Assembly: GCA_963706795.1 (NCBI GenBank)
Contig: OY970170.1
Location: forward strand, 630,001-662,000
Length of the DNA stretch: 32,000 bases
DNA from: Candidatus Saccharimonadota bacterium
GTDB lineage: Bacteria > Patescibacteriota > Gracilibacteria > BD1-5 > UBA2023
Reading direction: 5' to 3'
Both the position numbers and the translations under genes were made by a program. Positions 3,905 to 21,154 of the stretch are shown piece after piece. Numbering within the stretch: the first letter of the stretch is position 1; each line of letters begins with the position of its first letter. The notes below the pieces were generated by a model. That model was given only the letters and a program-made list of their open reading frames with translations. It was not told where the DNA came from and searched no databases.

Positions 3905-6900
3905 ATGAAGTTATTCCAATCTTACGGTCTTATTCGTGCACTTTTCCAAGAGGCCGAATCTCGTGCGAGTGCACCATCCACTCCAACTACCACTCCTATT
4001 GAGACAGTAAAGTCTACGACAGTTCTCGCTGATGCTGCAAGAGATGCCAAAACAAAGGCGGATCTTCTTTCGGCGATTGCTAACTCTCATCTTCCAGATG
4101 ATCAAAAAGCATCACTTGCTGAGGAAATCAACAGCCAGGAAGAGTTTTCACTGCTCGTAAGTCGCGCAATGTCGGCGCTCCGATCCGGTATGTCCCGAGA
4201 TCAGGTTGCATCGATTTTTGTACAGAGTTCTGGCATTGATGAAGCCAAGGCTCGCAAGCTCGCCGTGAGTGTGGTCGCGGTCTATGAGGATTCTAAAAAA
4301 TCTCTTGGTACACTCTCAAACGTACACAAGACTCTTGCGAGCATTCGCCCAGCATTCGAAGGTCGTCTTCGTTTCAATGATGCACTCGATGTGCTTCTTA
4401 AAAATCCAGAACTCTTTGCGGGCTTTACAAAAAATGACACACGCATTGTATCAAACAATATGGATTCATTTGATGCAAACACTGGATCTCAGCGTCTTGA
4501 GGCTGCGCTTACATCAAGTAACTATTTTGGGCTAGCACAATGGGGTACTGGTGAAAACAACTATACACAGTCAGAACTCGCGGCCATCATCGAACTCCGT
4601 GATGCTATCAATAAGGATCCAAAGACATTTGCACTTCTTAAGAACGGTACAAATATCCAACGAACAGTCCGCATCGTCAAAACTGCAGATGCTATGGACG
4701 AAAAAACAAAGTCACAAAATCAGCTCGCGAAGCTCCTCGACTTTAGTAATGATGGACTTCTTACATCGACCAATCACAAAGAAAAAAGCAGCAATCTCAT
4801 TATTGCGACATTTCAGGGGATATTTGGTGGTGGAAAAGATGCTCAGCTCCATGTTGCGACAGAGCTCGCAATGTATCTCAATCTCAAGGACCGAGCAACG
4901 ACAGAAAAGGGTCTTGTAGATATCATCGCAAAGGTTACTGGTCACGGATCAGAGTATGTGGAGGCACGCCTCGATGATCCAAAGAAGTTCGCTCTTCTCG
5001 TAAAGGAATTCCAGTTTTCGTTCCTCAATCAGGTTGCTGATACTACGCCTCAGGTTGCGGCAAAACTCGATGAAAAAACTTCTCAGGAATATTCATCCGA
5101 AAAGATCAAAGAGCAGAATGCAGCGATGAAATTCATCACTAACGCGCTCAAAAAAGAAGAAATGCCTGCTCTCGTCAATGCTAAGCTCAAGGCTGCCGGT
5201 TATCCTGCACTTGAGGGCAAGACGATGGAAGAACTCCTCGAACGTACGGCTTTCCAGATTTCTCTTAATCCACGTTTCTACTCATCAGTCGGAGCAAAGA
5301 TGAGTGTGACCGAAAAGACGTACAACAAAGAGATCATCACTGAAAATGTAAAGCTCATCCACACAATCGAAATTACCAACGATATCACACACGATCCAGG
5401 TACAACTATCGAACACACAAAAACAATCGATACCAAGACGTTACTTGATCGCAATGTCGTGATTGATGGGAATACTGGTAAAGTCATCTCTGATACCACT
5501 GTGGATACTGGTAAAAAGAATGTCACCATTACCGAAGCAACAAAGACCGTCCAGACTCGTACGCCAAGTGATACTTGGAAGTTCACAAAGGTTGATAAAG
5601 GAACTCAGACCGTAGTTGGTAAGACCGAAGTCACTCGTGAATCTGAAACAAAACGCGCATCTAAGCTCATCCCACATATCGTGGTTGGATTTAATCTCGG
5701 TGCATTCCAGGTGGAAGGCAAGGGATATTCGGCTGATGCTGGTGTCGGGGTCTCTGCAGTAGCTGGAGCTGATGGGGTTGTATTCCCAATCTCAGTTTCT
5801 GGTCGCGCAGACGTGGGCGTAGTAAACCGAAATGAATTTCTCCAGACAAGTAATCTCAAGGGTAATTTCACCGTTGGTGGCGAACTTGGATTTACAAAGA
5901 CGGCTGGAAATTCGGTGGTTCCATCGCTCGGATTTAATATCAATCCAAATAACGCGATCGATACTATCAAAGAAAAGCGTGTCGAGATCAAGGAGCTCTG
6001 GCCACTTCTCGGACTTACCCCAGATGGAAAGCTCGATGATAGCAAGATCCAGGCCCGACTTGCTGATCTCATCAAGGAGGCAAACTCAAAAAATCCCGTA
6101 GATGAAGAAATTCTCATGCGAGTTTCTATCATGATGAAGATGCTCGATGGAACAAAGAAGGTTGTTGAAACAACGAACATGACTGACGAGCAAAAACTCC
6201 ATGTACTTCGTAAGACTGCGTCTTTTGAAAAGACATATATGGCTATGGTTCATCAGAACCTCAGCGGACTTCGTGTTGCGGGTGTGAATATCACGGTTAT
6301 CCCAATGATCCATGCGATCTTCTTGGGTCTCAATCTCCAATATGTGAGTCATTCTGCCTCAAAGGACAAGGGAGTTGATGCTACCGAGAGCAAGGTTTTG
6401 AGTAAGAAGCACGCTGATCTTGCAAATGCCGAAACAATCAAAAAGTATGTAACGAGCTTTGATAAAACAACCGGAAGTATCTTGGTTAATCGAGCGGATG
6501 TTGAGGCAGGTATCGTCGTAATTGGCGAATCTCTTCAATCAACTGCCGAAGGAAATAACATCCGCGTAACTCCTCCAGTTACGAGCAAGCTCCGCATTGA
6601 GAGTCAATATTTTGTTACCGGAGAAGGAATTGCCACAACCGGTATCTCAATCGGTGAGGAAAAGGGATTACCAGCTGTCGCAGCTGCTCCAAGCGCTCCC
6701 GTTGCTCCAACAGAAGCTGGTGGCGAATTTAAGAACAGCTATGACAAAGATCTCTTTGGTAAGCAGATTCGCGATGAGCTCTTTGCTCTCGCTCATGATT
6801 CACGCAATACTGCGTTTATCAAGGCACTCAATAGCCTCATGGGTCACAGTGACTATGCCGGAGCTGAGGATCTCATCCGCAAGGGTGGAAAGAAACTCAA

Positions 6901-8074
6901 ATTCCTCACGATTGCGCTCGACAATCCAGGTGCCGACAAAGAAGCCATCATCCGCAATGCGCTTCTCGTAACTTCTGGTGGACGCGAAACTCGTGGTAAA
7001 GAAATCACGTATTCGACTGCAAAGCGAGTACATGATCGCACAAAGAACGCATTTGTTCGTCAGTTGGGCGTAACTGAGGCAGATTATGATGTGTTCATAA
7101 AAGCATACAATAAGTATGATGATCTCCTCATGCGCAATGAAAAGAACGCTAGTGTTCAGGAAGGCGGTCTCAATAAGAACGAAAAAGTAAAATCAGCACC
7201 ACTCTCGCTCATTCTCGGTAACGAAAAAGCGAACTACCGTGAGATTTCAGGAGTTGTAAATTTTGCTCAGATCGATAATCGTACTCACAAACCAACAGTT
7301 CGTGGAACATTCCCATTTAATGGTGACATCAGTGTTATTGGTGGATCAGCCGAAGTTGGAAATGGAGTTATGAAGGGATACATCCTCGGACTCATCGAAA
7401 AGTCTGGTGATCTCCAAAAAAATCTCGACAAAGCCAACAAGGCTATCCCAGGAGCTCGCAAATTCTCTATGGATGAATACAAGAGCTTCCTTCTCGAGGG
7501 TACGCTTCCTACAGACCTTGCAAATGTTGTATCTGCTGAACCAAAGGCAAAGTTTATCACGACTCGTGCTATGCTCCCAGGATCTGAGTGTATCAATGAC
7601 ATCTACGCAATTGCCTTCCCAGTAGTAAAACCGCTCGCAGGTCGTGCAGAAGTTGCACCACCACTCGATCATTCTCCAATCATCATCGAAAAGGAACAAG
7701 GAAATACCTACACAAATCAGGATGGTGTTTCGAGTTTGACACTCGGTATTGATTACCGAAAGGCATTAGTACAGGAGGCTTTCAATGAGTCTGTGCGCAG
7801 AAAAAATATAACAACAGAAGAAAAGGTGGAAACAAGGACAACTAATAAGGATCTTCCGCCAGGAGAATCATTTAAGACAGTGACTACTGGAAATCCTGTC
7901 ATTACAACAACGACAACGACTACTCCGAAGACTCCAGACATTCCAGTGAAACCAGTTGACGATACTAAAACGCCATCCACAAAACCAGTAGAAACACCAA
8001 CGCTTCCAAATGTAAATGGTGGAACTAACAACAACGGTGGTAATCAGACAACAACAGTTACCGAAGGCTTCTAA
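3905..8074 (+). CDS. Giant orphan protein (1389 aa) with a central beta-rich region and a C-terminal Thr/Pro-rich tail
   Basis: One uninterrupted ORF, with an in-frame TAA at 3881-3883 just upstream. There is no obvious signal peptide. I recognise no family. The tail reads TTTTTTTPKTPDIPVKPVDDTKTPSTKPVETPTLP. Zero UGA codons in 1389 codons. Confidence 0.85.
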   Translation: MKLFQSYGLIRALFQEAESRASAPSTPTTTPIETVKSTTVLADAARDAKTKADLLSAIANSHLPDDQKASLAEEINSQEEFSLLVSRAMSALRSGMSRDQVASIFVQSSGIDEAKARKLAVSVVAVYEDSKKSLGTLSNVHKTLASIRPAFEGRLRFNDALDVLLKNPELFAGFTKNDTRIVSNNMDSFDANTGSQRLEAALTSSNYFGLAQWGTGENNYTQSELAAIIELRDAINKDPKTFALLKNGTNIQRTVRIVKTADAMDEKTKSQNQLAKLLDFSNDGLLTSTNHKEKSSNLIIATFQGIFGGGKDAQLHVATELAMYLNLKDRATTEKGLVDIIAKVTGHGSEYVEARLDDPKKFALLVKEFQFSFLNQVADTTPQVAAKLDEKTSQEYSSEKIKEQNAAMKFITNALKKEEMPALVNAKLKAAGYPALEGKTMEELLERTAFQISLNPRFYSSVGAKMSVTEKTYNKEIITENVKLIHTIEITNDITHDPGTTIEHTKTIDTKTLLDRNVVIDGNTGKVISDTTVDTGKKNVTITEATKTVQTRTPSDTWKFTKVDKGTQTVVGKTEVTRESETKRASKLIPHIVVGFNLGAFQVEGKGYSADAGVGVSAVAGADGVVFPISVSGRADVGVVNRNEFLQTSNLKGNFTVGGELGFTKTAGNSVVPSLGFNINPNNAIDTIKEKRVEIKELWPLLGLTPDGKLDDSKIQARLADLIKEANSKNPVDEEILMRVSIMMKMLDGTKKVVETTNMTDEQKLHVLRKTASFEKTYMAMVHQNLSGLRVAGVNITVIPMIHAIFLGLNLQYVSHSASKDKGVDATESKVLSKKHADLANAETIKKYVTSFDKTTGSILVNRADVEAGIVVIGESLQSTAEGNNIRVTPPVTSKLRIESQYFVTGEGIATTGISIGEEKGLPAVAAAPSAPVAPTEAGGEFKNSYDKDLFGKQIRDELFALAHDSRNTAFIKALNSLMGHSDYAGAEDLIRKGGKKLKFLTIALDNPGADKEAIIRNALLVTSGGRETRGKEITYSTAKRVHDRTKNAFVRQLGVTEADYDVFIKAYNKYDDLLMRNEKNASVQEGGLNKNEKVKSAPLSLILGNEKANYREISGVVNFAQIDNRTHKPTVRGTFPFNGDISVIGGSAEVGNGVMKGYILGLIEKSGDLQKNLDKANKAIPGARKFSMDEYKSFLLEGTLPTDLANVVSAEPKAKFITTRAMLPGSECINDIYAIAFPVVKPLAGRAEVAPPLDHSPIIIEKEQGNTYTNQDGVSSLTLGIDYRKALVQEAFNESVRRKNITTEEKVETRTTNKDLPPGESFKTVTTGNPVITTTTTTTPKTPDIPVKPVDDTKTPSTKPVETPTLPNVNGGTNNNGGNQTTTVTEGF

Positions 8075-8319: not shown

Positions 8320-11300
8320 ATGAAATATACGGCATATTTTGTAGGATTCCTCCTTTTCCTCTTTCCTGCGTTTGCATTCGCTGCAACCTGTGATCAGACC
8401 TTTGAAGGAACGCTTCGAGTTGGGCAGTGATATAAATTCAGTGACGAATTTACAAACAGTACCGACAATGCGCTCAAGATTGCCGCATTTCGCCCTGAGT
8501 TCAACGAGCAATATGACTACGATGGTGCTGCCGGCGTTATGCATTATGGATGGACGCCATGGATTAGCTCACGAAAGGGTGTTATCCAGCCAGGTGAACA
8601 GGGTATTATAGTTGAGACAGATACGAATTATCCAATCATCTATTCACCACCCGTTCGATCAAAGAATAATCTCACGGTTCGTTACGTAGTCGATTATCGA
8701 CGCCAAGTAAAAGGTGTTTGGAATACTAATATCGAAAGCCACAGTGAATGTAAGTCATACGAAATCACCTGGTGTGGTGATGGAGTAGTGGATTCTCAAT
8801 ATGGAGAACTCTGTGATCAGGGTGCTCAAAATGGGAAGGTAGGTTCAAGTTGTAGTGCCACATGTACGCCCGTTACAACTCCTCCGCTCGATTGTAATCG
8901 CGGTAATGTAACACTTCCACTTACTGCTCCGATTAACTCAGGTACGGCAGGTCTCTGTCAGCCAGGAGTTGCGGTAAATGGCTTTGGTTCTACGATTGCA
9001 GGTACTGCTACAAATTTCTTTTGGGCATGTGGAGCAAGTGCGATTGGTGGTGCATGTAGCGCTACCTATGATACTTCAACCAATGGTGCGCTCTGTACTC
9101 GTGGAAATATCCCACTTCCACTTACGGGAGTAATTACGGTAGCGACTCCAGGACTCTGTCCAGTTGGTCAGACTGCGGAACGCTTTACGGCAACTCCGAA
9201 TGGTACAGGTACCGACTATAGTTGGGCATGTAGTGGTTCGGCTGTAGGAGGATCATGTGCGGCAAGTTTTACAGGTACGCCAGTTACGCCAACTCCGTAT
9301 TCTGCATGTATGCCAGCGAGCCCAACAACGGATTGTTCGGCAAACCAATATGCTACGCTTGCAGCCTGTCTCGTTGCTAATCCAGGAGCCTCAGGTCGTA
9401 CATGTTATCTCAATGATGTAGCGGCTTGTAACGCAACACGAGCAACTCAGTGTCCTGCAACAGTTCTTCCAGGTATTTGTAATAGTCTCACAGCAACTGC
9501 TACGTCTTCAACAACTGGTACTCTCACAACTAACGTGACATGTACAGCGGGAGTTGGCGCCGGAGCAAGTCCAACATTCGCCATCAATTGTGGAAATGGT
9601 CAGACAATCAATGCGGCAACTGGTACTTGTACTTATGCTGCTCCAGGAAACTTTGTAGCTTCGTGTACAGTAAATAACACTACTCCAACACCCGCAGCTT
9701 GTCAGTTACCAATCAGTGTAACCAATGGCGGTGGAGGTGGTCCAGGAGCATGTCGTGCGCTCAATATCCAATCAAGTATTCAGGTAGATAACGGATATCG
9801 TGTTTCATATACTTGTACTGCAAACCCAGGAGTTGCTGGTCCAAACCCAAGTTTCCGCGTAGATTGTGGAAATGGTCAGAGCGTTGGTTCAGATGTCGGA
9901 AGCTGTTTTTATACAGCGGCCAACACCTATAACATGGCTTGTTACGTAGAAAACTCTACAGACTCAGTGAATTGTCAGAAGCCTATCATCGTTGCATCAG
10001 CTGGTGCACCACTCCCAGGTGGAGGTGGTGGTATCGGAGGTGGTGGAGGAAGTGGCTACTGTGGAAACGGCCAGATCGATGCAGGTGAAACCTGTGATGC
10101 TGGAAGCAACGGGGGAGTTCCGATCAATAATGGATTTTGTAATAACTGTCATTCTGGTTGGACAAATCCAGGAGCCTGTGCACGTGGTGCGCTCGACTGT
10201 CCTGCAGGTTGGACAAATCCAGGTGGAAACGGTATCGACATCTACTATCGAGATGGAACAACGAATGCTTCACTCCTCGTACCAAAGATCCGATCGATCG
10301 TTGGTAATGGCGTAAACGTATTTAGTCCTGGTGATGCATTCACGATCCATGCAAACTATCCAATCTATATCGGAGGACTCACAGCTGGCTTCGTCAATAA
10401 CAACACAGGTCTCGTCACTGGAAGCTCAGTCTATCACCCAACTCCAGATACGTGTATCGGAGAAGGAAAGATGCAACTCTACGAAAATGGTCCAACCGTC
10501 AATTGTGGAGATTACACACTCTTTAAGGCGGATGCGAATGGTAAATTTGATGGTACAGCCTTTATCGGTGATACCTCAGGCATCCCAGCAGGTCAGTCGA
10601 GCGCGGATGTGAATCCCTCTCGTTCTGTAGGCTCTGCAGTACGTGAAAATAACTTCTTTGTTGGACTCAACTATCTCATCGAACCAATTCCTGTACGTGT
10701 TGCTCGCTCTGCGATCAGTAATACTGCCGGAGGAAATGCCTATGTTGGAATCCAAGTTGGATATAGCGTAAATTCGATTACGTCATCCTTCATGGATAGC
10801 CTCAAGAAGGGAAACTTCACAGTAACATCTTCGTCGAAGGATATCGCAAGCTCACTCTCTTCTGCTACATCTGAACAAGTCGGCAAGGCAGTCGATGCAA
10901 ATGGAGATCAGAATGCTTCGATCACAAAGTTCTCACAAAGTTCGGATGCTATTGCTAAGACGGTAGTGATTAATTCACAGGCAGACTTCGATACCTTCCT
11001 CTCAAAAGTCGGAGACAATCCAAATCTCTATACGCTTGCCAAGGGAAAAGTCATCATCAATGGCAATCTCCAGCTCTCAGGAGTGAAGACGCTCGTCATC
11101 GATGAAGGAAGACTCGAAATCAATGGCAATATCACCTACGCCGATGCAAATGCCAGCTGGGCATTCGTCATCAAACAAGCTGGAACTGAAAAGAAAGGAA
11201 TCGTCGTTGCTTCATCAGTTACTGATATCGCCGGAGTCTATATTGTCCTCGAGGGTGATATGGTCGGAATGGGTCAAACCATCAATCCACTCGCCGTCGA

Positions 11301-11484
11301 TGGAAACATCAGTGCGAATATCGCTCCACTCGTCAACGACCGAACCTATATCCGAGCAACGCAGAATTCATCGGCACTCTCTACAGGTGTAACGATCAAC
11401 TACTCGACCCGAGCATTCAAGAATCCACCACCGCTCCTCTCGCAGTATCTTGATCAGTACAATCTCGCAAAAATCTCACGATAA
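8320..11484 (+). CDS. Giant secreted Cys-rich repeat protein (1054 aa), putative surface adhesin
   Basis: The track ORF 8539-11484 extends upstream through TGA 8428-8430 to an ATG at 8320. This exposes the signal peptide MKYTAYFVGFLLFLFPAFAFA. Two CG[DN]G..D...E.CD.G motifs occur, near 8773 and 10060. There are two 67 aa tandem Cys modules (8893-9093 and 9094-~9280). There are also two ~90 aa 'CGNGQ' modules (9478-~9750 and 9751-~10060), poly-Gly linkers, and a beta-helix-like C-terminal region. Confidence 0.85.
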
Positions 11485-13686: not shown

Positions 13687-13765
13687 GCGAGGGTAACATA
13701 AAAGAGTGAGTGTACTGAGGCTTCAACCCTCGGGTGTGCCGGTTCGAACCCGGTCCCTCGCTCCA
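13687..13765 (+). tRNA. tRNA-Gly(UCA), the UGA-decoding (recoding) tRNA
   Basis: The acceptor is GCGAGGG/CCCTCGC. The anticodon stem is TGAGG/CCTCG. The loop is C-T-TCA-A-C, with the anticodon at 13723-13725. The variable loop is 5 nt. The T arm is GCCGG-TTCGAAC-CCGGT. U73 and CCA are encoded. G1:C72, C2:G71, G3:C70 and U73 match bacterial tRNA-Gly identity elements. The D arm is atypical (a 20 nt D region with no clear GG), so a covariance-model check is needed. Confidence 0.8.
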
Positions 13766-13868: not shown

Positions 13869-13914
13869 AATTTAGGTATCAAGCATAAGTTCATTAATGA
13901 TGGACTCGAACATA

Positions 13915-13937
13915 GGGAAGAGTCCCATCTCCGCTCC
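13915..13937 (+). pseudogene. Decayed copy of the 3' T-arm/acceptor half of tRNA-Gly(GCC)
   Basis: GGGAAGAGTCCCATC-TCCGCTCC compares with GGGTTCGAGTCCCATCATCCGCTCC of the tRNA 70 nt upstream. Confidence 0.35.
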
Positions 13938-13954
13938 TATGTAATTTCAAGAAG

Positions 13955-13984
13955 AAAAAGACTCTGGAAAGAGTCTTTTTCTTT
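13955..13984 (+). terminator. Rho-independent terminator after the tRNA-Gly pair
   Basis: Stem AAAAAGACTCT, loop GGAA, stem AGAGTCTTTTT, followed by CTTT. Confidence 0.75.
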
Positions 13985-14043
13985 GGGGAGAATTCCCTGG
14001 CCCAAAAGTTTCAAATTTTAAAAAATTCAGATACAATCCGCAC

Positions 14044-14355
14044 ATGATAAAACCAATTGACTCTCCTTCTGGCGTGCCAGCGATTACAAAAATCGAAAAG
14101 TCACCTCTCGCTGACAATAACCAGCCACCTCTTCAACATGAGCAAAATTCTGCTTCTCAAGAAGCATGATCACAGGCAGTCGAATGAGCCGTAGCAGGAA
14201 ATACTCCTGTACACACAACAGCCGCATCCGTTATGGCAGTGCACAATCTTGCAGTACATCTCGCACTCAAGGCTTCACAAGAAGAACAAGAAGCAGAAAA
14301 AGAAGAAAAAAACGATCAAGAATCCACATCAGAAGACACTCCAGATCAACAATAA
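14044..14355 (+). CDS. Acidic hypothetical protein (103 aa under table 25)
   Basis: The ATG is at 14044. Two in-frame TGAs give '..QEA(G)SQAVE(G)AVAGN..'. The C-terminus is Glu/Asp-rich, and the TAA stop is at 14353-14355. A possible -10 box, TACAAT, lies at 14032-14037, only 6 nt upstream, which suggests a leaderless transcript. Confidence 0.5.
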
Positions 14356-14356
14356 T

Positions 14357-14695
14357 ATGGCTAATTCCCACGGACTTTCACCCCGCATCGTCAAAAAGCA
14401 AGCTGCAGCCCGCAAGCTCTCAAAAGGAAAAAAGAAATCCTTTGCGGTCTATATCGGCAACGAAAATGCGCAAACTCGTAAAAATACGAGTTTCAAACGA
14501 CGTAAGCACTACATGGAAAACAAGCAAAATTTCCCGTCCAAACGTCTCCCAACCAAGAACATCGAAGCCCTCATGGAGCTCGGAATCCTCGACGAACGCG
14601 GATTCTTCAAGAAAGGGAAGAAGAAGAACTACATAACCAAGTCCATGGTGGATATCAAGGGGTTTGACTATTACGGACTTCCGCGCGCTGCGTAG
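14357..14695 (+). CDS. Very basic hypothetical protein (112 aa), translationally coupled to the acidic ORF
   Basis: The ATG lies 1 nt after the upstream TAA (TAATATG). The protein is Lys/Arg-rich (MANSHGLSPRIVKKQAAARKLSKGKKK...). I recognise no family. Confidence 0.6.
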   Translation: MANSHGLSPRIVKKQAAARKLSKGKKKSFAVYIGNENAQTRKNTSFKRRKHYMENKQNFPSKRLPTKNIEALMELGILDERGFFKKGKKKNYITKSMVDIKGFDYYGLPRAA

Positions 14696-14752
14696 TTTTT
14701 CGAAGCGTTATTTGCAAAAAAATAATTCTTCGTTACACTTCGCTCGCTTTTT

Positions 14753-14830
14753 GCAGCCGTAGCTCAGTTGGATTAGAGCGCCTCCCTGCGAAGGAGGAGG
14801 TCACTGGTTCGAGCCCAGTCGGTTGCACCA
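14753..14830 (+). tRNA. tRNA-Arg(GCG)
   Basis: Cloverleaf: GCAGCCG / GCTC-AGTTGGATTA-GAGC / CCTCC-CTGCGAA-GGAGG / AGGTC / ACTGG-TTCGAGC-CCAGT / CGGTTGC-A-CCA. The anticodon is at 14788-14790. The 5' half closely resembles E. coli tRNA-Arg. Confidence 0.9.
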
Positions 14831-14834
14831 TTTC

Positions 14835-14886
14835 AAAACTCAATAATAAAACCCGTCATATATGACGGGTTTTATTATTGAGTTTT
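14835..14886. repeat. Left copy of the 44 bp direct repeat, inside a perfect 52 nt palindrome (a bidirectional terminator)
   Basis: AAAACTCAATAATAAAACCCGTCATA|TATGACGGGTTTTATTATTGAGTTTT. Positions 14835-14878 are identical to 19262-19305. Confidence 0.9.
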
Positions 14887-14891
14887 GGTGT

Positions 14892-17408
14892 TTATTGAAA
14901 AAGTGCTCGAAGAGTGCTTTTTGTGGTTGATTGGGGTATTATTTGAAATTGATATCCAGTAAATTTTCTTACCCCGTCTCTTGCTCATTCTTCAGTCATT
15001 CTCTGGAATACTAGTTCTTTATATCTCGTATCGAGATTTTCTACTAACTGATCTCATTTACTTTCTATGATATAGATTAACTCAAGTTTTCACGCTGTAT
15101 CTTGTTTTGCAATAATAAAATCAGGATATATTTTATTCTTTCTCCACGCCTGTATCTTGTAGGCACTTTCTTCCACCTTATTTCTCATCCACCATAACAC
15201 CTTTTCTTTTGTTCTGAGTTCTTCTATAACCTCCTTTTCGAGATTATTCATAGTTACATAATCCACTGCCAGATGGAGACACTTTGGATCAGTCTTGAGT
15301 GGCAGAATTGTCTCGCTATCTTCGTCAAATTTTGCTGGAGCTGAATATAATGTTGGAATTGTATAACCTCACTCTTGTGTGATTGCAAGAAATATAGTTC
15401 ACTCAGATACAAGTTTATTAAAAACAATCTCTTCATTTTTATAGCACTCACTTCTGATAAATTTCGAAATTTCATGCGCAATATATCCAAAATCACTTTC
15501 GATAGTGGGTCTATCTATTTTTTTGGATAAATTTCAGACAATTTGTTGAACGAGGTCATAGGATACAAATGGATTCCCAATATATTCTGATATTATTTGA
15601 GAGGTGATATATTCATCTCATCACTCGACATGTTCTTTTTCATATTCTATACCCTCTCAGGCATATTCTCCTCAAAGAAAATATTGGAGATCAGTACCTT
15701 GCATCTTCTGTTTTCCTACAGTTTTTATGAGTACTTCCAAAAGTGGAGCAAGGTCTAGATTATTCCAGTCTATTCGAGGAAGAATATCTGATCTATATGA
15801 CAATGCACGAATCCCGTGAGTATCCTCTATATGCCAAATTGGAAGCGAGAGAGATTCTGGATATTCTTCGATAAATTGAGATTGTATAGAGAAATCTCTA
15901 TACATGAGTCATTTTCCACTTGGTCCTGAGCTTCCTTTGACCGTATCGATTATGTCTTCGAGCCCGTCACTTTCCAGAGATTTTTTGATTCCCTTGAGAA
16001 GCTCCTCACTATCTGAGTGATTGAAATACGCATAACACTGATCGAGTTCCGATATACCTGTACGCTTTGTGTATGGTTGTCTCAAAACACGCCCTATAAG
16101 CTGAGTGAGGGCAGTAGTACTACTGGAAGTAGGAATCACTCATAAAACATAAGCAAAGGGGCAATCCCAGCCCTCCATAAGTGCCTGTTTGGTGATAATA
16201 TATCGTATATCTGAATCTTGAGACATGAGGACCTCATCTTTGAGTTCGTCGATATATGATGATTTTATAGCTATCTGATTGCTTGGTATTCCTATCTCTA
16301 CGAGATACTCTTTTACATCGTCAGCGTGGACATGAAGCCCATCTCTCTTGTCCTTTCCAGTTCTATCCGCTTGGAGGAGTGCTATAGGTCTGATATAGTC
16401 ACCTTTTTGCTCTTTTAGTCCGAGTGCTTTCTTTTCAAGTTCTTCTCTCTTTTCTCGTACATCATGTATGAGTTCCCTCCAGTTATCATTTGACTCTGGA
16501 CGGACATTGATAGGGAGCTTTATCATCTCATCTCTATAGAGGTCCATTCACTTGATAGTGACGAGGATATTCATCCCAGCTTTTGGCGTGGCGGAGAGTC
16601 CTATCATACATCGAGGATTGAGAGAATCGAGAACTCTTCTCTGAGCATCAGTATAGACCTTATGAAACTCATCCACGATAAAAAGCGGATTACATACTCG
16701 TATGATATTTCCGAGACTTGTCTTTATTTGTTTGACTCATAGGAGGTCTTGCTCGAAGCAATCGAGCATAGGGAATTTTTCCACAAGAGCATCTATCTTA
16801 TCTTTCTCATGCTCCATAGGGAAGAAATCCATAAAATTCCCAGAATCTCGAAAGACTCTCAGATTTTCTTTTGTTTCTTGATTGGCTGATTGTATCATCA
16901 CCATAAGCACGACGAGGTTTTCTTGAGTATCTTGCCATCGTATTGCATCGGTTTTTTCGAGTATAAGGGTTCTATCACCACTTACCTGATCGAGCATCTG
17001 CCTATAGGGATTTGTCTTATCTTTGAGCTTCTCTATTGTCTGGAGGTATATAGAATCCGTATGAGTTACCCATACGATGAGTCCTGTTCTCTTTTCGAGG
17101 AATTGGTTTTGATAGTGCTCTACGGTTTTGATACCAAGTAGTGTCTTTCCTCCACCTGTAGGCACTTTGATACAGAGGCGTGGATATATCACTCATGCAC
17201 TTTCTGGAATATCAGAAAAATCCCTATATTCTGGAGTTTTTGTATATATCTCTTTTACTGGAGGAATAAGTGAAGCAATCATAGAGTCGAGTCCTGCCAT
17301 CTTCAATTTCTGGAGTTTATCATTGTACGAAAAAGACTCATCTTTCCATTTTTGGAAAAATGTCTCAAGTGTAAGTACCACTTTTTGTTGAGAGCTTTTT
17401 AGTAACAT
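14892..17408 (-). CDS. res: Type III restriction enzyme Res subunit (838 aa; SF2 helicase plus C-terminal PD-ExK nuclease)
   Basis: One frame, re-stitched through 15 TGAs. Motif I is 'VPTGGGKT', motif II is 'VDEFH', and there is an 'EGWDCP' box. Motif VI is 'QLIGRVLR'. The C-terminal 'YPDF...IIESKG' matches PD...ExK. The TAA stop is at 14892-14894. The start lies 2 nt after the mod stop. Confidence 0.85.
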
Positions 17409-17410
17409 AA

Positions 17411-19105
17411 TTATTTTCTTTGGAATAGATTATAAGGTACTTGTACGAAAGATATATGATTATCATCGAGGACCTCTTTATCGAGGAAGCACGCTGGAGC
17501 ATATACTATTTTCTTTCCCTCTGTAGATTTTACGCTTTCGAGCCAGTCACGAGTGATAGCAAGATTGCGGAGTTCCTCTATAGTATCTGCATATATGAGA
17601 TATACACCTGTATTTCGGTCCTCAGTACATATTTCCCATGTAGAATCTGGATCAGCAATATCATCTATTGGCTTGCCTGTAGCAAGGAAGTAGACATACT
17701 TTGCGAAACTTTCCCAGCTTGGAAGTGATTCTCATTCAAGGATTTTTCGTCACTCAATAGATGGACCAAGATTATAATAGGTAAAACCGACAGCGAGATC
17801 ATATTTTTCTACTACTTTTTTTATGCGGTCACGAGTTATTTCGTGAATAAAATCATATCAAGCTGATTTTGCCTGTGCCTTTTCTGTAAGAGTTTCTGGA
17901 AGTTGTACGAGGATAAATTTTCTATTTCCACCATCCTCTTGATTCAATTCCATAATAGCCTGTGCAGTTGTTCCAGATCCAGCAAAAGAATCAAGAAATA
18001 TTCCATTCTCAGAATTTGGAATAAATCAAAAGAAATACTTGAGCATATGCTTTGATTTCGGATTATCAAAGACTTTTACTCCACCAAACAATTCTGTAAG
18101 TTCGTTTGTACTTCAGCGACCATCCTCATAATAAAGACTTCGGAAACGATCCGAAATATTATCCAATCTTATTTTTGGCTTAATTAAAGTTGTCTCGTCT
18201 TTTCAAAACATTATGTCCTTATTCTTGAGCATATCAATCATCGTTGCCTCTGAAAATCTATATCAATTCGGCGGTAACGAACAAACTTCTCCAGTTAGTG
18301 GATGAACAACATCATATGTATACCCTCAAAGCCGAGTATTTGAGATATCTCAATCATGAAAGACTCATTTTTCATCAACATTATCGTAATGAGTTACTCT
18401 TTTTAAAGCATTTTCATTTTCTCGTATCCATTTTCTGAGTAACTTTTGAATTTTTTCAAAATCATCTCCAAATTCTTCTTTTAGTTCTGCATATTTTGTA
18501 TTTATCATCATTCATCAATGACTCATATTCTTCCAGTAAGTCTGAGAACTCTTATTTTTTGAATATATCAAAACATATTCATGTTCCATTACAATCTGGG
18601 TAGGATTATTATCTGTGGCAGTTTGAACGACTACAGTACCCAAAAAATCACCCTCCCTAAAAATATCATCACATAGAGATCTGAGATTATTTACCTCATT
18701 TTCATCTATCGAAATAAATATCACTCCATCTTCAGCAAGAAGCTCTCTCAAAAGTTTGAGACGAGGAGTCATCATACAGAGCCACTTATCGTGACGAGTC
18801 ATATCCTCTTTATCTATAACTTTTCCGAGCCATTCTTTTATAATGGGACTACTTACATTATCATTATATGCCCAGCCCTCTTTTCCTGTATTGTACGGGG
18901 GGTCAATATATATACATTTTACTTGCCCTTGATATTTCGGGAGGAGAGCCTTCAGAGCGAGGAGATTATCTCATTCTATAAGGAGATTTTCACTCGCATT
19001 TTCACCATCGAGAGAATTTGATTCTACTTTTTCGAGAGTGTGATATGGTACTGAGAGGTGATGATTCCAGACAGCTGATTTTCCTTTAAAATTAAGTGAT
19101 GCCAT
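17411..19105 (-). CDS. mod: Type III R-M Mod subunit (564 aa; beta-class N6-adenine/N4-cytosine DNA methyltransferase)
   Basis: One frame, re-stitched through 13 TGAs. The N-terminal segment reads 'LIE(G)DNLLALKAL'. The catalytic motif IV is 'IDPPYNTG'. It also has 'HDKWLCMMTPRLKLLRELL' and the AdoMet motif I 'DSFAGSGTT'. The mod-res gene order is typical of type III systems. Confidence 0.9.
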
Positions 19106-19261
19106 AACAAATACCTTTTGTGAATAAATCTCATTGTTCCTTATCTATCCTAGATGTAGAGCATCTTACACAATATGATTAAAACACCAATCATAAACCT
19201 CCTAAATGCACTATATTTGATAACAATTGATTCTTTATTGCTAACACAAGTTGTCCTTACA

Positions 19262-19305
19262 AAAACTCAATAATAAAACCCGTCATATATGACGGGTTTT
19301 ATTAT
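19262..19305. repeat. Right copy of the 44 bp direct repeat. It also serves as terminator for the S8 peptidase gene.
   Basis: Identical to 14835-14878. The palindrome is truncated on its right arm, after ATTAT. Confidence 0.9.
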
Positions 19306-19315
19306 GTTCTTTCTT

Positions 19316-21154
19316 CTATTGCGCCATGAGCTTATATGCTAGCTGAAACACTTCTGATCTCATTGCAAAGGTATTCGGCAAGAAGAAATCAGTCTTGGTG
19401 ATATATCCCTTAGTGGCTGCGGTATTGATATATCCTGCAAGGTCACCCATAGATACTGATACATCCTTAAAACCAGCACTTATTTGCGAGACCTGTACGT
19501 TTTTGGCTGCGAGGATGATCTTGATCATCTCAGCTTTGGTTACCAGATCTGAGGGGCGGAATTTTGAGTTATTTTTTGATACCATTCCTGCTTGTGCTGC
19601 TGCTTCGACATATCAGCAGAGATCTCCGATAGAGTCGCTTACATCACCGTAGATTTTGCCAGAACAGGGTACAGTGGCTTTACCCGAAAGCTTGATTGCA
19701 ATTTTTACAATCTCAGCGCGAGTAATTTGATCACCAAGACGATAACCTGACTCTGTGGATTGCGTAGAAATAACGCCTGATGCTGCGAGTGACTCAAAAT
19801 ATGTGAGAGACTTTTTTGTATCTGTAATTGGAGCAGTTGGTTTTACTGCAGTTGTTGTTGGTTTCTTTGCGGCTGCTTCTGAGAGCTTTCGACCCAAGAT
19901 ATCGAGATATTTTGCAGCATCTACTATTCTTGTTCGATCAGCAAGCTTGGTGAAGTTCATGTTGTCCGTCGAGTAATTAAAGTCACTCACACTCTCTGTG
20001 AGGCTGTCAAAAACCATGTCTGCAGGTGCACTTCCATATCTGTTGTAACCGAGTGCAACGATACCCGCGATGATCGGTGCAGAAAATGATGTTCCGTCTT
20101 TGCTATCGTACCTATATCCATCGGTATAAACAGGAATTGAGGTTGATAATATATCCTCCCCAGGAGCCCAGAAATTTACACAATTTCCAAAATTAGACCA
20201 TTCACTCTTTTTTCATTCTCTATCTATAGAGCCTACTCAGATAGATAATTTATTGTCCTTGCCACCATTATTACAGACAGGTGAGATAGGACTGACGCTG
20301 AGATCGAGTCACTTTATTCAGTACGTATAGGCATCTCAGTTTCCTGCGGCGATGACGGTTACAATATTTTTGCTTGCAGCTTTTTTGATTACTGCGTCAA
20401 AATTCGTGCTGTATGCAAATTGGCTTTTTCCAAGACTCAAATTGATAATATTGGCACCATTGTCTATAGCGAAGTTCATGGCGCGAATGATATTCTCTTC
20501 TTTTGCTGATCCAGATCACTCCACAGGGAAAACTCGCAGTGGCATAATTTTTGCATTCTTAGCAATTCCGGCAATTCCTACATTATTTTCGGAAGTCGCT
20601 CAGATAATACCAGCTACCATGGTACCATGCCCTTGTGATGCAAAGTTAGCCAGGTTATCGCCTACAAAGTCCTTTACCTTGCTTGCTCCATAGGCAGCAG
20701 TTGGATCAATCCATATGCTATTTATGAGATCAGGTTGACTAATATCCAGTCCATCATCTATGACCGCAACAACAACCTGTTTTGGATCTGTGACCTGTTT
20801 CCAAGCAGCAGGAACATTCATGGTCTTTAAATAATACTGCCTGTGCGAATACGTGTCATTTGTTGGGGCAGTTTTCTTGAGATTCTCATCTGCAACGAGA
20901 TCGAGCATAGCATCAATGCTTTCAATGCTCCACTTATATGTCGCATATACCTTTGCTCACTTAAGATAGGTTTCTGCTTGTTCGAGTTTTCCGTCATTAA
21001 AGGCGTCGATTCCTTTATCGTAGAGTCCACATGCATTCTGAGCCAGGTTTGTTTGATCTGGTGTACAGCGAGGAGGTGTAGTGACAGCAAGGGCTGTGGA
21101 ACTTGCTCCTGATATGAAACAAATAAGTGCCAAGATATAAAGAATCTTTTTCAT
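19316..21154 (-). CDS. Secreted subtilisin-like S8 serine peptidase with C-terminal SLH-like domains (612 aa)
   Basis: One frame through about 9 TGAs. The signal peptide is MKKILYILALICFISGASSTALA. The catalytic residues are Asp in 'VAVIDDGLD', His in 'GHGTMVAGII' and Ser in 'GTSFSAPIIAG'. Three SLH-like repeats follow, for example 'DVSDSIGDLC(G)YVEAAAQAGMV...FRPSDLVTKAEMIKIIL'. Confidence 0.9.

What the first reader, a model, noticed from the sequence alone, without database searches (positions are those of the whole stretch)
14835..19305. Type III R-M cassette inserted into a palindromic terminator with a 44 bp perfect target duplication, next to tRNA-Arg
- The 44-mer AAAACTCAATAATAAAACCCGTCATATATGACGGGTTTTATTAT occurs at 14835-14878 and again at 19262-19305.
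- The left copy is part of a perfect 52 nt palindrome directly after tRNA-Arg. The right copy has lost the end of the right arm.
- Between the copies lie only mod and res, in a segment that is visibly more AT-rich than the flanks. No integrase or transposase is present.
- Removing the segment plus one repeat would recreate a simple layout: tRNA-Arg, then a bidirectional terminator, then the S8 peptidase gene.
- This is the signature of 'insertion with long target duplication'. That mechanism was proposed for R-M gene mobility in Helicobacter. I am not aware of it being reported in CPR bacteria.
Basis: partly seen in the sequence, partly recalled or inferred. Interest (0 to 1): 0.7.

Follow-up and report, generated by a model that had tools for sequence, protein, structure and literature searches.

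The report
Restriction-modification genes inserted at duplicated terminator
A two-gene DNA-defence unit (a Type III restriction-modification system) was recently acquired from another Gracilibacteria lineage and now sits in the hairpin terminator between a tRNA gene and a protease gene, with 44 bases of that terminator copied on both sides; this is a clear new example of a known way such selfish gene pairs move, not a new kind of element.

Summary
The 44-mer is exact at 14835-14878 and 19262-19305. The left copy lies inside a perfect 54-nt palindrome (14834-14887), 4 nt after tRNA-Arg(GCG). Only mod and res lie between the copies. They read as intact genes only under genetic code 25 (UGA=Gly), with 28 in-frame TGA codons.

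The segment is a real, recent insertion:
- The closest available relative (L001) is syntenic across the window but lacks the R-M genes.
- The insert has 36.7% GC, against 44.8% for the rest of the window.
- The same res is 92% nt / 95% aa identical in a distant Gracilibacterium (L037), whose housekeeping gene is only about 61-65% identical.

The mechanism is not settled. The case meets the testable criteria of Furuta et al. 2010 for "insertion with long target duplication". That mode is already known from many phyla and all R-M types. However, homologous R-M modules ride on large-serine-recombinase elements. These integrate at tRNA 3' flanks and have long direct repeats made of the tRNA-downstream terminator, and one is an 8.49-kb circle. 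The repeats here could therefore be att-type scars.

An 8-nt palindromic extension at the left junction only is a possible footprint of hairpin fold-back repair.

Verdict: new member of a known kind, moderate interest.

The parts
14753..14830 (+). tRNA-Arg(GCG). Its 3' end lies 4 nt before the left repeat copy.
   Evidence: ARAGORN; Rfam tRNA, 67 bits. The same tRNA is followed by serine-recombinase islands in L037 and L003.
14834..14887 (.). Perfect 54-nt palindrome (27-nt arms, no spacer). It would act as a bidirectional intrinsic terminator for tRNA-Arg (+) and res (-).
   Evidence: the repeat finder I2, 100% complementary. DNA fold -27 kcal/mol, z = -10.8. Terminator-like on the scan.
14835..14878 (+). 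Left copy of the 44-bp repeat.
   Evidence: Exact match. Its leader AAAACTCAATAATAAAAC aligns with the tRNA-Arg terminator leaders of L001 and L093.
14879..14886 (+). TGAGTTTT: an 8-nt extension that mirrors AAAACTCA (14835-14842). It is present only at the left junction, on the insert side of the repeat.
   Evidence: Read directly from the sequence. The chance of an 8-nt match is about 1.5e-5. L001 and L093 terminators do not mirror their leader after tRNA-Arg.
14892..17408 (-). res: Type III restriction subunit, 838 aa, 15 in-frame TGA (Gly).
   Evidence: Code-25 ORF. Pfam ResIII. PADLOC REase_III 9e-140. 95% aa identical to L037. TGA codons align with GGN in standard-code homologues.
17411..19105 (-). 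mod: Type III N6-adenine methyltransferase, 564 aa, 13 in-frame TGA. Its stop codon lies 2 nt before the res start codon.
   Evidence: Pfam N6_N4_Mtase. PADLOC MTase_III 2e-126. EcoP15I Mod 4.6e-84. Junction sequence.
17998..18692 (-). Central part of mod, presumably the target-recognition domain. It does not align to L037 although both flanks are 92-96% identical.
   Evidence: Gap in the blastn alignment. Mod is only 66% aa identical overall, against 95% for Res.
19106..19261 (-). 156-nt region upstream of mod, inside the insert. It has no similarity to the mod-upstream regions of L037, L090 or L092, or to the L001 spacer. It presumably carries the mod-res promoter.
   Evidence: Flank comparison; local alignment with shuffle control.
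19262..19305 (+). Right copy of the 44-bp repeat. It contains a 36-nt perfect palindrome (19270-19305) that would terminate the S8 gene and insulate mod.
   Evidence: Exact match. Terminator-like on both strands. DNA fold -15.6 kcal/mol, z = -8.6. Homology to L001 resumes at 19303.
19316..21154 (-). Host gene for an S8 (subtilase) peptidase with an SLH domain, 612 aa, convergent with tRNA-Arg.
   Evidence: Pfam Peptidase_S8 3e-42 and SLH. The L001 orthologue is 75-80% aa identical and sits 195 bp from tRNA-Arg.

Best explanation
A Type III mod-res operon was acquired horizontally and recently from a lower-GC Gracilibacteria lineage that also reads UGA as glycine. It was inserted into the single bidirectional hairpin terminator shared by the convergent tRNA-Arg(GCG) and S8 peptidase genes. 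44 bp of that terminator were duplicated, so tRNA-Arg/res and S8 each keep a terminator.

Most likely mechanism (inferred): a recombinase-independent 'insertion with long target duplication'. A staggered break exposed the 44-nt hairpin region as single strands on both chromosome ends. On the tRNA side, the overhang AAAACTCA + 36-nt palindrome folded back on itself. It was then filled in up to the double-strand junction, which added TGAGTTTT. On the S8 side, the 3' tip of the overhang is unpaired, so no such extension formed.

Shown: the insertion, the foreign origin and the exact 44-bp repeat. Well supported: that the repeat is host sequence. Inferred: the break-and-fold-back steps.
For: Insertion:
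- L001 is syntenic over the whole window but skips 14853-19302. It has 195 bp between tRNA-Arg and S8.

Foreign and recent:
- GC is 36.7% against 44.8%, about 7 SD below same-size windows. Tetranucleotide distance is 0.39 against at most 0.24 elsewhere. TGA supplies 31-34% of Gly codons in mod/res, against 0-19% in host genes.
- res is 92% nt / 95% aa identical to L037, whose ELP3-like gene is only about 61-65% identical.
- Contigs bearing this R-M module have 36.7-37.4% GC.
- The donor used code 25. Ten TGA positions in res are shared with L037 and L089. Nearly all TGA codons align with GGN in the standard-code homologues.

Repeat is host DNA:
- Its left end continues the homology to the L001 and L093 leaders, and its right end abuts the conserved S8 flank.

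Criteria of Furuta et al. 2010 met:
- R and M genes are both in the insert.
- The insert is 4.4 kb, under the 20-kb limit.
- The repeat is 44 bp, over the 30-bp limit.
- There is no integrase or recombinase, and no remnant of one.
- The repeat contains no tRNA sequence.
- The repeat lengths of 45-49 bp tabulated there are comparable (two of the five are classed as long target duplications, three as integrase-mediated).

Fold-back reading:
- The left boundary of the repeat (14835) coincides, within 1 nt, with the left boundary of the palindrome (14834/14835).
- The mirrored 8 nt occur only at the left junction.
- A newly arrived foreign element is unlikely to carry 44 nt identical to a lineage-specific hairpin. 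L001 and L093 have different stems at this position.
Against: - Position immediately 3' of a tRNA gene is the classic signature of site-specific integration.
- The 92%-identical R-M of L037 lies downstream of the same tRNA-Arg in the same orientation, next to a 561-aa large serine recombinase.
- Related modules form an 8,490-bp circle (L092). Its integrated copy (L090) has 91-nt direct repeats made of the tRNA-Cys 3' end plus the downstream terminator.
- L096 is a recombinase-less R-M island flanked by roughly 40-57-nt repeats, 23-40 nt from the tRNA-Glu 3' end.
- No empty-site allele with one copy of this 44-mer was found. The hairpin core is absent from the JGI metagenome contigs, from IMG/VR and from all 98 fetched loci except the source sample.
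- The rest of the 1.27-Mb source genome could not be searched for further copies.
- The fold-back model is inferred from a single locus.
- The mechanism of long target duplication is not experimentally established.
Confidence: 0.45

Rival explanations
1. The 44-bp repeats are attL/attR-type scars. The R-M unit entered as, or on, a circular integrative element of the serine-recombinase family seen in L037, L089, L090/L092 and L094. It recombined (site-specifically or Campbell-type) through a segment identical to the tRNA-Arg downstream terminator. It is now a recombinase-less mini-element, either decayed or mobilised in trans. In this reading the element's own site carried the full 52-nt palindrome.
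For: - The location is tRNA-adjacent.
- L037 has the near-identical R-M at the same tRNA-Arg, next to a Resolvase+Recombinase protein.
- L003 also has a serine recombinase abutting tRNA-Arg(GCG).
- L092 is a circular 8,490-bp element: mod, res, recombinase, DUF5681, Bro-N. Its integrated copy L090 has a 91-nt repeat covering the tRNA-Cys 3' end plus a hairpin terminator.
- In L094 the recombinase abuts tRNA-Asn.
- L096 is a recombinase-less island with 88%-identical repeats containing a hairpin near tRNA-Glu.
- This model explains the 52-nt palindrome without any extra step.
Against: - There is no recombinase or remnant in the window.
- Only 13 nt (14879-14891) separate the left repeat from the res stop codon, and only 156 nt (19106-19261) separate the mod start codon from the right repeat.
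- Nucleotide homology to every other copy stops exactly at the res stop codon and the mod start codon. Two deletions ending almost at the repeats would be required.
- The repeat contains no tRNA sequence.
- In L037 the junction lies at the tRNA 3' end and no long repeat is present.
- A recently arrived element with 37% GC would need 44 nt identical to a hairpin that differs even in the 90-94% relatives L001 and L093.
Confidence: 0.33
2. The two hairpins predate the R-M or were homogenised later. Either the 44-mer belongs to a multi-copy terminator or repeat family and the R-M landed between two copies, or two separate terminators (as in L001) were made identical by gene conversion or a secondary duplication.
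For: - L001 has two terminators at this locus, one after tRNA-Arg and one after S8. Both start with a similar leader, AGAAATCA..AGAAAAA.
- Both window copies sit where a terminator is needed.
- Only about 34 kb of a 1.27-Mb genome could be inspected.
Against: - No third copy with up to 3 mismatches occurs in the 32-kb window or in the roughly 1.8 kb beyond its left end held in L098.
- The core is absent from all other Gracilibacteria loci fetched and from two public collections.
- The two L001 hairpins have unrelated stems, whereas the copies here are 44/44 identical.
- There is no flanking homology that could drive gene conversion.
Confidence: 0.15
3. Assembly ambiguity. The chromosome is really tRNA-Arg, one terminator, S8, and the 4.4-kb R-M unit is a separate circle (or lies elsewhere) that shares the hairpin. 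A short-k assembly graph is identical for both layouts.
For: In the independent Logan (k=31) assembly of ERR12037365, the contigs break exactly at the repeats. L081 ends at window position 19276, and L088 is a 4,434-bp contig holding only the R-M genes. The graph edges are the same for the integrated layout and for circle plus empty site.
Against: - A 44-nt repeat is spanned by ordinary 100-150-nt reads and by k >= 55.
- The source is a single 1,267,896-bp contig, which implies the repeat was resolved.
- The four junction sequences are all distinct, so spanning reads would decide the matter.
Confidence: 0.05

Closest known systems
R-M 'insertion with long target duplication' (Nobusato et al. 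2000, as cited in Furuta, Abe & Kobayashi 2010, NAR 38:2428, PMC2853133)
   Same: - R and M genes alone form a short insert flanked by a perfect direct repeat longer than 30 bp.
- There is no integrase or transposase.
- The insert GC is lower than that of the host.
- The repeat is 44 bp. The paper's Table 2 lists repeats of 45-49 bp; the two classed as long target duplications (H. influenzae) are 46 bp.
- The paper reports this mode for Type III systems too.
   Different: - The host is a Gracilibacterium (CPR, code 25), and the cassette itself carries 28 UGA-Gly codons.
- The target is a palindromic bidirectional terminator 4 nt from a tRNA gene.
- One junction carries an 8-nt palindromic extension.
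- The single-copy target in an empty-site genome, which the paper uses as proof, could not be shown here.
tRNA-targeting integrative elements or genomic islands carrying R-M genes (the site-specific class in PMC2853133, Fig. 3c-e; large-serine-recombinase elements)
   Same: - The insertion is next to a tRNA gene.
- Long perfect direct repeats flank AT-rich foreign DNA.
- Homologues of this very R-M module are cargo of such elements (L037, L089, L090/L092, L094).
   Different: - No recombinase gene or remnant lies between the repeats.
- The repeat contains no tRNA sequence.
- Homology to the element-borne copies is confined to the two ORFs.
EcoP15I-type Type III restriction-modification systems
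   Same: - The gene order is mod then res, and the genes are almost contiguous.
- Mod matches EcoP15I Mod at 4.6e-84.
- Res has ResIII helicase motifs (PTGGGKT, VDEFH) and a C-terminal PD…ESK motif (sequence). It gives PADLOC REase_III 9e-140.
- Variation in the central region of Mod resembles the known allelic target-recognition-domain exchange.
   Different: - Res is only weakly similar to EcoP15I Res (1.4e-07, helicase region only).
- The genes are translated with UGA=Gly.
- Activity and recognition sequence are unknown.

Membership tests
Insertion with long target duplication (criteria of Furuta et al. 2010) | Both an R gene and an M gene homologue lie in the inserted sequence. | tested here: met
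   res 14892-17408 and mod 17411-19105.
Insertion with long target duplication (criteria of Furuta et al. 2010) | The insert is shorter than 20 kb and contains only R-M genes, with no integrase or transposase. | tested here: met
   The insert is 4,383 bp. The two ORFs fill it except for 13 nt and 156 nt. tblastn with three serine recombinases finds nothing in the window.
Insertion with long target duplication (criteria of Furuta et al. 2010) | A direct repeat longer than 30 bp flanks the insert. | tested here: met
   44/44 identical.
Insertion with long target duplication (criteria of Furuta et al. 2010) | The repeat aligns to a single-copy target in a genome that lacks the insert. | tested here: inconclusive
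   L001 lacks the insert at the syntenic site, but it has 195 bp with two different hairpins. Only the leader (about 18 nt) and the 3' TAT align. No closer empty-site genome was available.
Insertion with long target duplication (criteria of Furuta et al. 2010) | The repeat is unique in the genome and is not tRNA sequence. | tested here: inconclusive
   It is not tRNA sequence; it starts 4 nt after the tRNA. It is unique in the 32-kb window and in the roughly 1.8 kb beyond its left end held in L098. The remaining ~1.23 Mb of the source genome could not be read.
Site-specific integrative element (attL/attR) | A recombinase or integrase gene lies within the element. | tested here: not met
   There is none between the repeats or anywhere in the window.
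Site-specific integrative element (attL/attR) | Integration next to or into a tRNA gene, with flanking direct repeats. | tested here: met
   The repeat starts 4 nt after tRNA-Arg. Relatives of the module show the same pattern with recombinases.
Site-specific integrative element (attL/attR) | An excised circular form or an attP junction is detectable. | not testable with these tools
   This needs reads from ERR12037365 or the source sample. A circular form was seen only for the related 8.49-kb element L092.
Type III restriction-modification system | A Mod methyltransferase with DPPY and FxGxG motifs in beta-class order and similarity to Type III Mod proteins. | tested here: met
   IDPPYNTG lies before DSFAGSGTT in the sequence. 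EcoP15I Mod 4.6e-84. MTase_III 2e-126.
Type III restriction-modification system | A Res subunit with an SF2 helicase/ATPase domain plus a C-terminal nuclease motif, encoded directly downstream of mod. | tested here: met
   Pfam ResIII 4e-16. REase_III 9e-140. A PDF…ESKG motif near the C-terminus. The res start codon lies 2 nt after the mod stop codon.
Type III restriction-modification system | Methylation and ATP-dependent cleavage activity. | not testable with these tools
   Both ORFs are intact under code 25, but no functional data exist.

The most novel reading that the evidence does not exclude
The one-sided 8-nt palindromic extension (TGAGTTTT) ends exactly where the 44-bp duplication begins. 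It may be a P-nucleotide-like footprint showing that 'long target duplication' proceeds through staggered opening of a hairpin or cruciform terminator, followed by fold-back priming of the 3' overhang. If so, it would be a first mechanistic trace for a mode of R-M mobility whose mechanism has stayed unknown since 2000. It would also imply that palindromic terminators are preferred landing sites.
Probability: 0.2. Interest if true: 0.7.

Novelty: new member of a known kind. Interest (0 to 1): 0.45.

Why it matters
- It documents recent gene flow of a defence system between Gracilibacteria lineages. The cassette carries 28 UGA-Gly codons and cannot be expressed in standard-code hosts, so the genetic code confines it to this group.
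- The same R-M module is found in three states: cargo of 8.5-kb circular or integrated serine-recombinase elements, part of a recombinase-less island, and a "naked" pair flanked by a duplicated terminator.
- It provides a clean locus, with an asymmetric junction footprint, on which the unresolved mechanism of long target duplication could be tested.
- It also shows that table-11 ORF calling hides the genes entirely.

Tried and rejected
- **Table-11 ORF calling.** It shows no long ORF in the interval. A pseudogene reading was rejected once code 25 gave intact genes with TGA at conserved Gly positions.
- **Exact look-ups with code-25 proteins.** Look-ups with table-11 fragments of the window's genes returned only one sample with the window's own sequence (ERR12037365) plus the withheld >1-Mb source contig. 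One res fragment also matched short R-M-only contigs (88-96% nt identical) in five other samples. No population variant or empty site was found.
- **Hairpin core search.** The 26-mer scan of JGI metagenomes and IMG/VR gave 0 hits. The 18-mer search in all fetched loci found only the source sample.
- **Res relatives in IMG/VR.** None were found.
- **Cassette against plasmid and phage collections.** Only distant methyltransferase similarity was found.
- **Recombinase remnants in the window.** None were found.
- **Homology between the L001 spacer and the window insert.** This would indicate a decayed older insert; none was found above the shuffle level.
- **Flanks of other R-M copies against the window's 13-nt and 156-nt internal flanks.** They are unrelated.
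- **Integron attC, IS200/IS605 or REP-type hairpin elements.** These were considered from memory and set aside. There is no matching core motif and no associated gene.
- **Rfam.** It finds only the three tRNAs.

Full report
**1. Observation**

The 44-mer is exact at 14835-14878 and 19262-19305, and no shuffle produced a match. The neighbouring bases differ on both sides, so the repeat is exactly 44 nt.

The left copy starts 4 nt after tRNA-Arg(GCG) at 14753-14830. It is embedded in a perfect palindrome of 54 nt at 14834-14887. The right copy keeps a 36-nt perfect palindrome plus the unpaired leader AAAACTCA. It lacks TGAGTTTT.

Because the sequence is palindromic, the 44-mer also matches the minus strand at 14843-14886. 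Orientation alone therefore cannot say whether the right copy is direct or inverted.

Both copies fold strongly: -27 and -15.6 kcal/mol as DNA, with z = -10.8 and -8.6. Both score as intrinsic terminators.

**2. Genetic code and genes**

Under table 11 the interval holds only fragments. Three observations pointed to code 25:
- A tRNA with anticodon UCA (13687-13765) lies beside tRNA-Gly.
- Long ORFs appear when TGA is read through.
- TGA falls at invariant glycines, for example Mod "LIEGDNL" and subtilase "AAGNG".

All 80 related loci found with the neighbouring radical-SAM (ELP3-like) gene are Gracilibacteria or Patescibacteria. In res, TGA aligns with GGN in standard-code homologues at almost every position.

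Under code 25 the genes are:
- res, 14892-17408(-), 838 aa.
- mod, 17411-19105(-), 564 aa.
- An S8 peptidase with an SLH domain, 19316-21154(-).

Supporting calls are 8-12 and 78. Mod and Res are Type III by Pfam, by PADLOC (REase_III 9e-140, MTase_III 2e-126) and by similarity to EcoP15I (Mod 4.6e-84, Res 1.4e-07).

**3. It is an insertion**

L001 is the closest genome available (ELP3-like protein 83% identical). It is collinear with the window from 1.7 kb to 28 kb. It aligns to 14353-14852 and then directly to 19303-21038. Between tRNA-Arg and the S8 stop codon it has 195 bp with two unrelated hairpin terminators and no R-M genes.

A closer fragment, L093 (small upstream ORF 94% identical), has yet another hairpin after tRNA-Arg and different downstream content. 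The site is therefore variable among relatives.

**4. It is foreign and recent, from another code-25 lineage**

- The insert is 36.7% GC, against 44.8% for the rest of the window. Same-size windows average 44.9 +/- 1.1%.
- Its tetranucleotide distance is the highest in the window.
- TGA supplies 31-34% of its Gly codons, against 0-19% in host genes.
- L037 is a Gracilibacterium whose ELP3-like gene is only about 61-65% identical. It carries res at 92% nt / 95% aa identity and the two ends of mod at 96% nt identity.
- The centre of mod (17998-18692) does not align to L037. That pattern is expected for exchange of a target-recognition domain.
- Fragments 88-96% identical occur in five further samples.
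- Contigs bearing this R-M module have 36.7-37.4% GC.
- Ten TGA positions in res are shared by the window, L037 and L089. The module has therefore circulated among UGA=Gly hosts for a long time.

**5. The repeat is host sequence**

- The first roughly 18 nt of the left copy continue the alignment to the tRNA-Arg terminator leaders of L001 and L093.
- The last 3 nt of the right copy, and everything beyond, align to the S8 3' flank of L001.
- Any conservative or duplicative model therefore implies an ancestral site of this form: tRNA-Arg, ATTTC, the 44-mer, GTTCTTTC, S8.

**6. What the relatives of the module show**

- In L037 the module lies downstream of the same tRNA-Arg in the same orientation. 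A 561-aa Resolvase+Recombinase protein sits between the tRNA and res, and two extra ORFs lie beyond mod.
- L003 also has a serine recombinase abutting tRNA-Arg(GCG).
- In L089 (Res 86% identical), res is followed by a Resolvase-domain gene.
- L092 has a 30-nt terminal overlap, so it is an 8,490-bp circle carrying mod, res, a 659-aa recombinase, DUF5681 and Bro-N.
- The identical sequence is integrated in L090 and L091 beside tRNA-Cys. It is flanked there by a 91-nt repeat made of 9 nt of the tRNA 3' end plus the downstream hairpin terminator. The third copy in L090 is a scaffold-gap artefact.
- L094 has mod, res, further genes and then a 566-aa serine recombinase abutting tRNA-Asn.
- L096 is a 6.8-kb island without a recombinase. 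It is flanked by 88%-identical repeats of 40-57 nt that contain a hairpin, 23-40 nt from the tRNA-Glu 3' end.
- Across all copies, nucleotide homology to the window stops exactly at the res stop codon and the mod start codon, and the internal flanks are unrelated.

**7. Mechanism**

Two readings remain.

(A) Recombinase-independent insertion with long target duplication. This class is defined in PMC2853133 by four features: R and M genes only, insert under 20 kb, repeat over 30 bp, and no integrase or tRNA-like repeat. That paper reports it for R-M types I-IV in many phyla. Its mechanism is unknown but thought to involve double-strand breakage. All criteria that could be tested here are met.

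(B) att-type repeats from integration of a circular element of the serine-recombinase family, now without its recombinase.

I favour (A) slightly, for three reasons:
- Nothing but the two ORFs is shared with the element-borne copies.
- Only 13 nt and 156 nt of other sequence lie inside the repeats, so (B) would need two deletions ending almost at the repeats.
- A newly arrived 37%-GC element should not carry 44 nt identical to a hairpin whose stem differs even in the 90-94% relatives.

However, tRNA adjacency and the L037, L090 and L096 precedents keep (B) close.

A simple 44-bp duplication leaves one fact unexplained. The 8 nt TGAGTTTT (14879-14886) mirror AAAACTCA and sit on the insert side of the left copy only (chance about 1.5e-5). 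The palindrome's left edge also coincides with the repeat's left edge.

My proposal, which is inference, is as follows:
1. Staggered nicks left 44-nt 3' overhangs on both chromosome ends.
2. The tRNA-side overhang (AAAACTCA plus the 36-nt palindrome) snapped back on itself and was filled in to the double-strand junction. This added exactly TGAGTTTT.
3. The next base, G at 14887, pairs with C at 14834. That would fit one extra displaced nucleotide, or it could be chance.
4. The S8-side overhang ends in unpaired TGAGTTTT-3', so it cannot prime in this way.

Under (B), the 52-nt palindrome would simply be the element's own terminator.

**8. Other rivals**

- A multi-copy terminator family or gene conversion is not supported by the sequence I could read. 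It cannot be excluded without the full genome.
- An assembly artefact (chromosome plus a separate R-M circle) gives the same k=31 graph. This matches the Logan contig breaks at 19276 and the R-M-only 4,434-bp contig. A 44-nt repeat is spanned by ordinary reads, though, and the source is one 1.27-Mb contig.

**9. Novelty and score**

- R-M genes on genomic islands in Patescibacteria have been reported (PMC12455944).
- Long target duplication is established as a pattern in many phyla.
- This locus is therefore a new member of a known kind.
- It has three useful extras: confinement by genetic code, the same module seen in three mobility states, and an asymmetric junction footprint.
- Interest: 0.45.

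Noticed in passing
window 3905-8074 (+) and 8539-11484 (+); L001 11929-15294 and 15559-19494: Two giant ORFs (1389 and 981 aa; no Pfam family except a weak PKD hit) contain no TGA among 99 + 123 Gly codons. Other host genes use TGA for about 12% of Gly codons (P about 6e-13). The L001 orthologues also have 0 TGA among 146 + 87 Gly codons. This complete avoidance of the reassigned codon is unexplained.
   Followed up: partly
window 13687-13765 (+): ARAGORN labels this gene tRNA-SeC(UCA). It sits beside tRNA-Gly(GCC) and is best read as the UGA-decoding tRNA of genetic code 25. Table-11 tools fragment most genes in this window.
   Followed up: yes
window 17998-18692 (within mod): The central ~700 nt of mod do not align to the L037 copy, although both flanks are 92-96% identical. 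This looks like an exchange of the target-recognition domain and would imply a different methylation specificity.
   Followed up: partly
L092 1-8520; L090 1-8694; L091: An 8,490-bp circular contig (30-nt terminal overlap) carries mod, res, a 659-aa large serine recombinase, DUF5681 and Bro-N. The identical sequence is integrated beside tRNA-Cys with 91-nt repeats (tRNA 3' end plus terminator). The att region overlaps the 3' end of the recombinase ORF, whose length differs between the two forms (659 vs 607 aa).
   Followed up: partly
L001 8111-8326 (spacer between tRNA-Arg and S8): The two L001 terminators have unrelated stems, but both start with the leader AGAAATCA..AGAAAAA. This may be a relic of an older duplication at the same site. 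The 130-nt spacer has no similarity to the window insert.
   Followed up: partly
L093 917-1454: In the 94%-identical relative, tRNA-Arg is followed by a different hairpin and then by unrelated, G+C-richer sequence and a new ORF instead of the S8 gene. Rfam finds nothing there. The tRNA-Arg 3' flank appears to be a hot spot for variation.
   Followed up: partly
L001 8950-9140 (between tRNA-Gly and the small ORF): L001 carries about 3.5 tandem copies of a ~57-nt unit (…GAGTTTTGAGAAATCAGCGATCATACTCAGGGG…). They are absent from the corresponding window region 13869-14356.
   Followed up: no
window 14826-14829 and 14887-14890: If ATTTC is bulged out, GGTG after the palindrome pairs with CACC at the tRNA-Arg 3' end. 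The predicted fold then extends into the tRNA acceptor end. This is a marginal match and may be chance.
   Followed up: no
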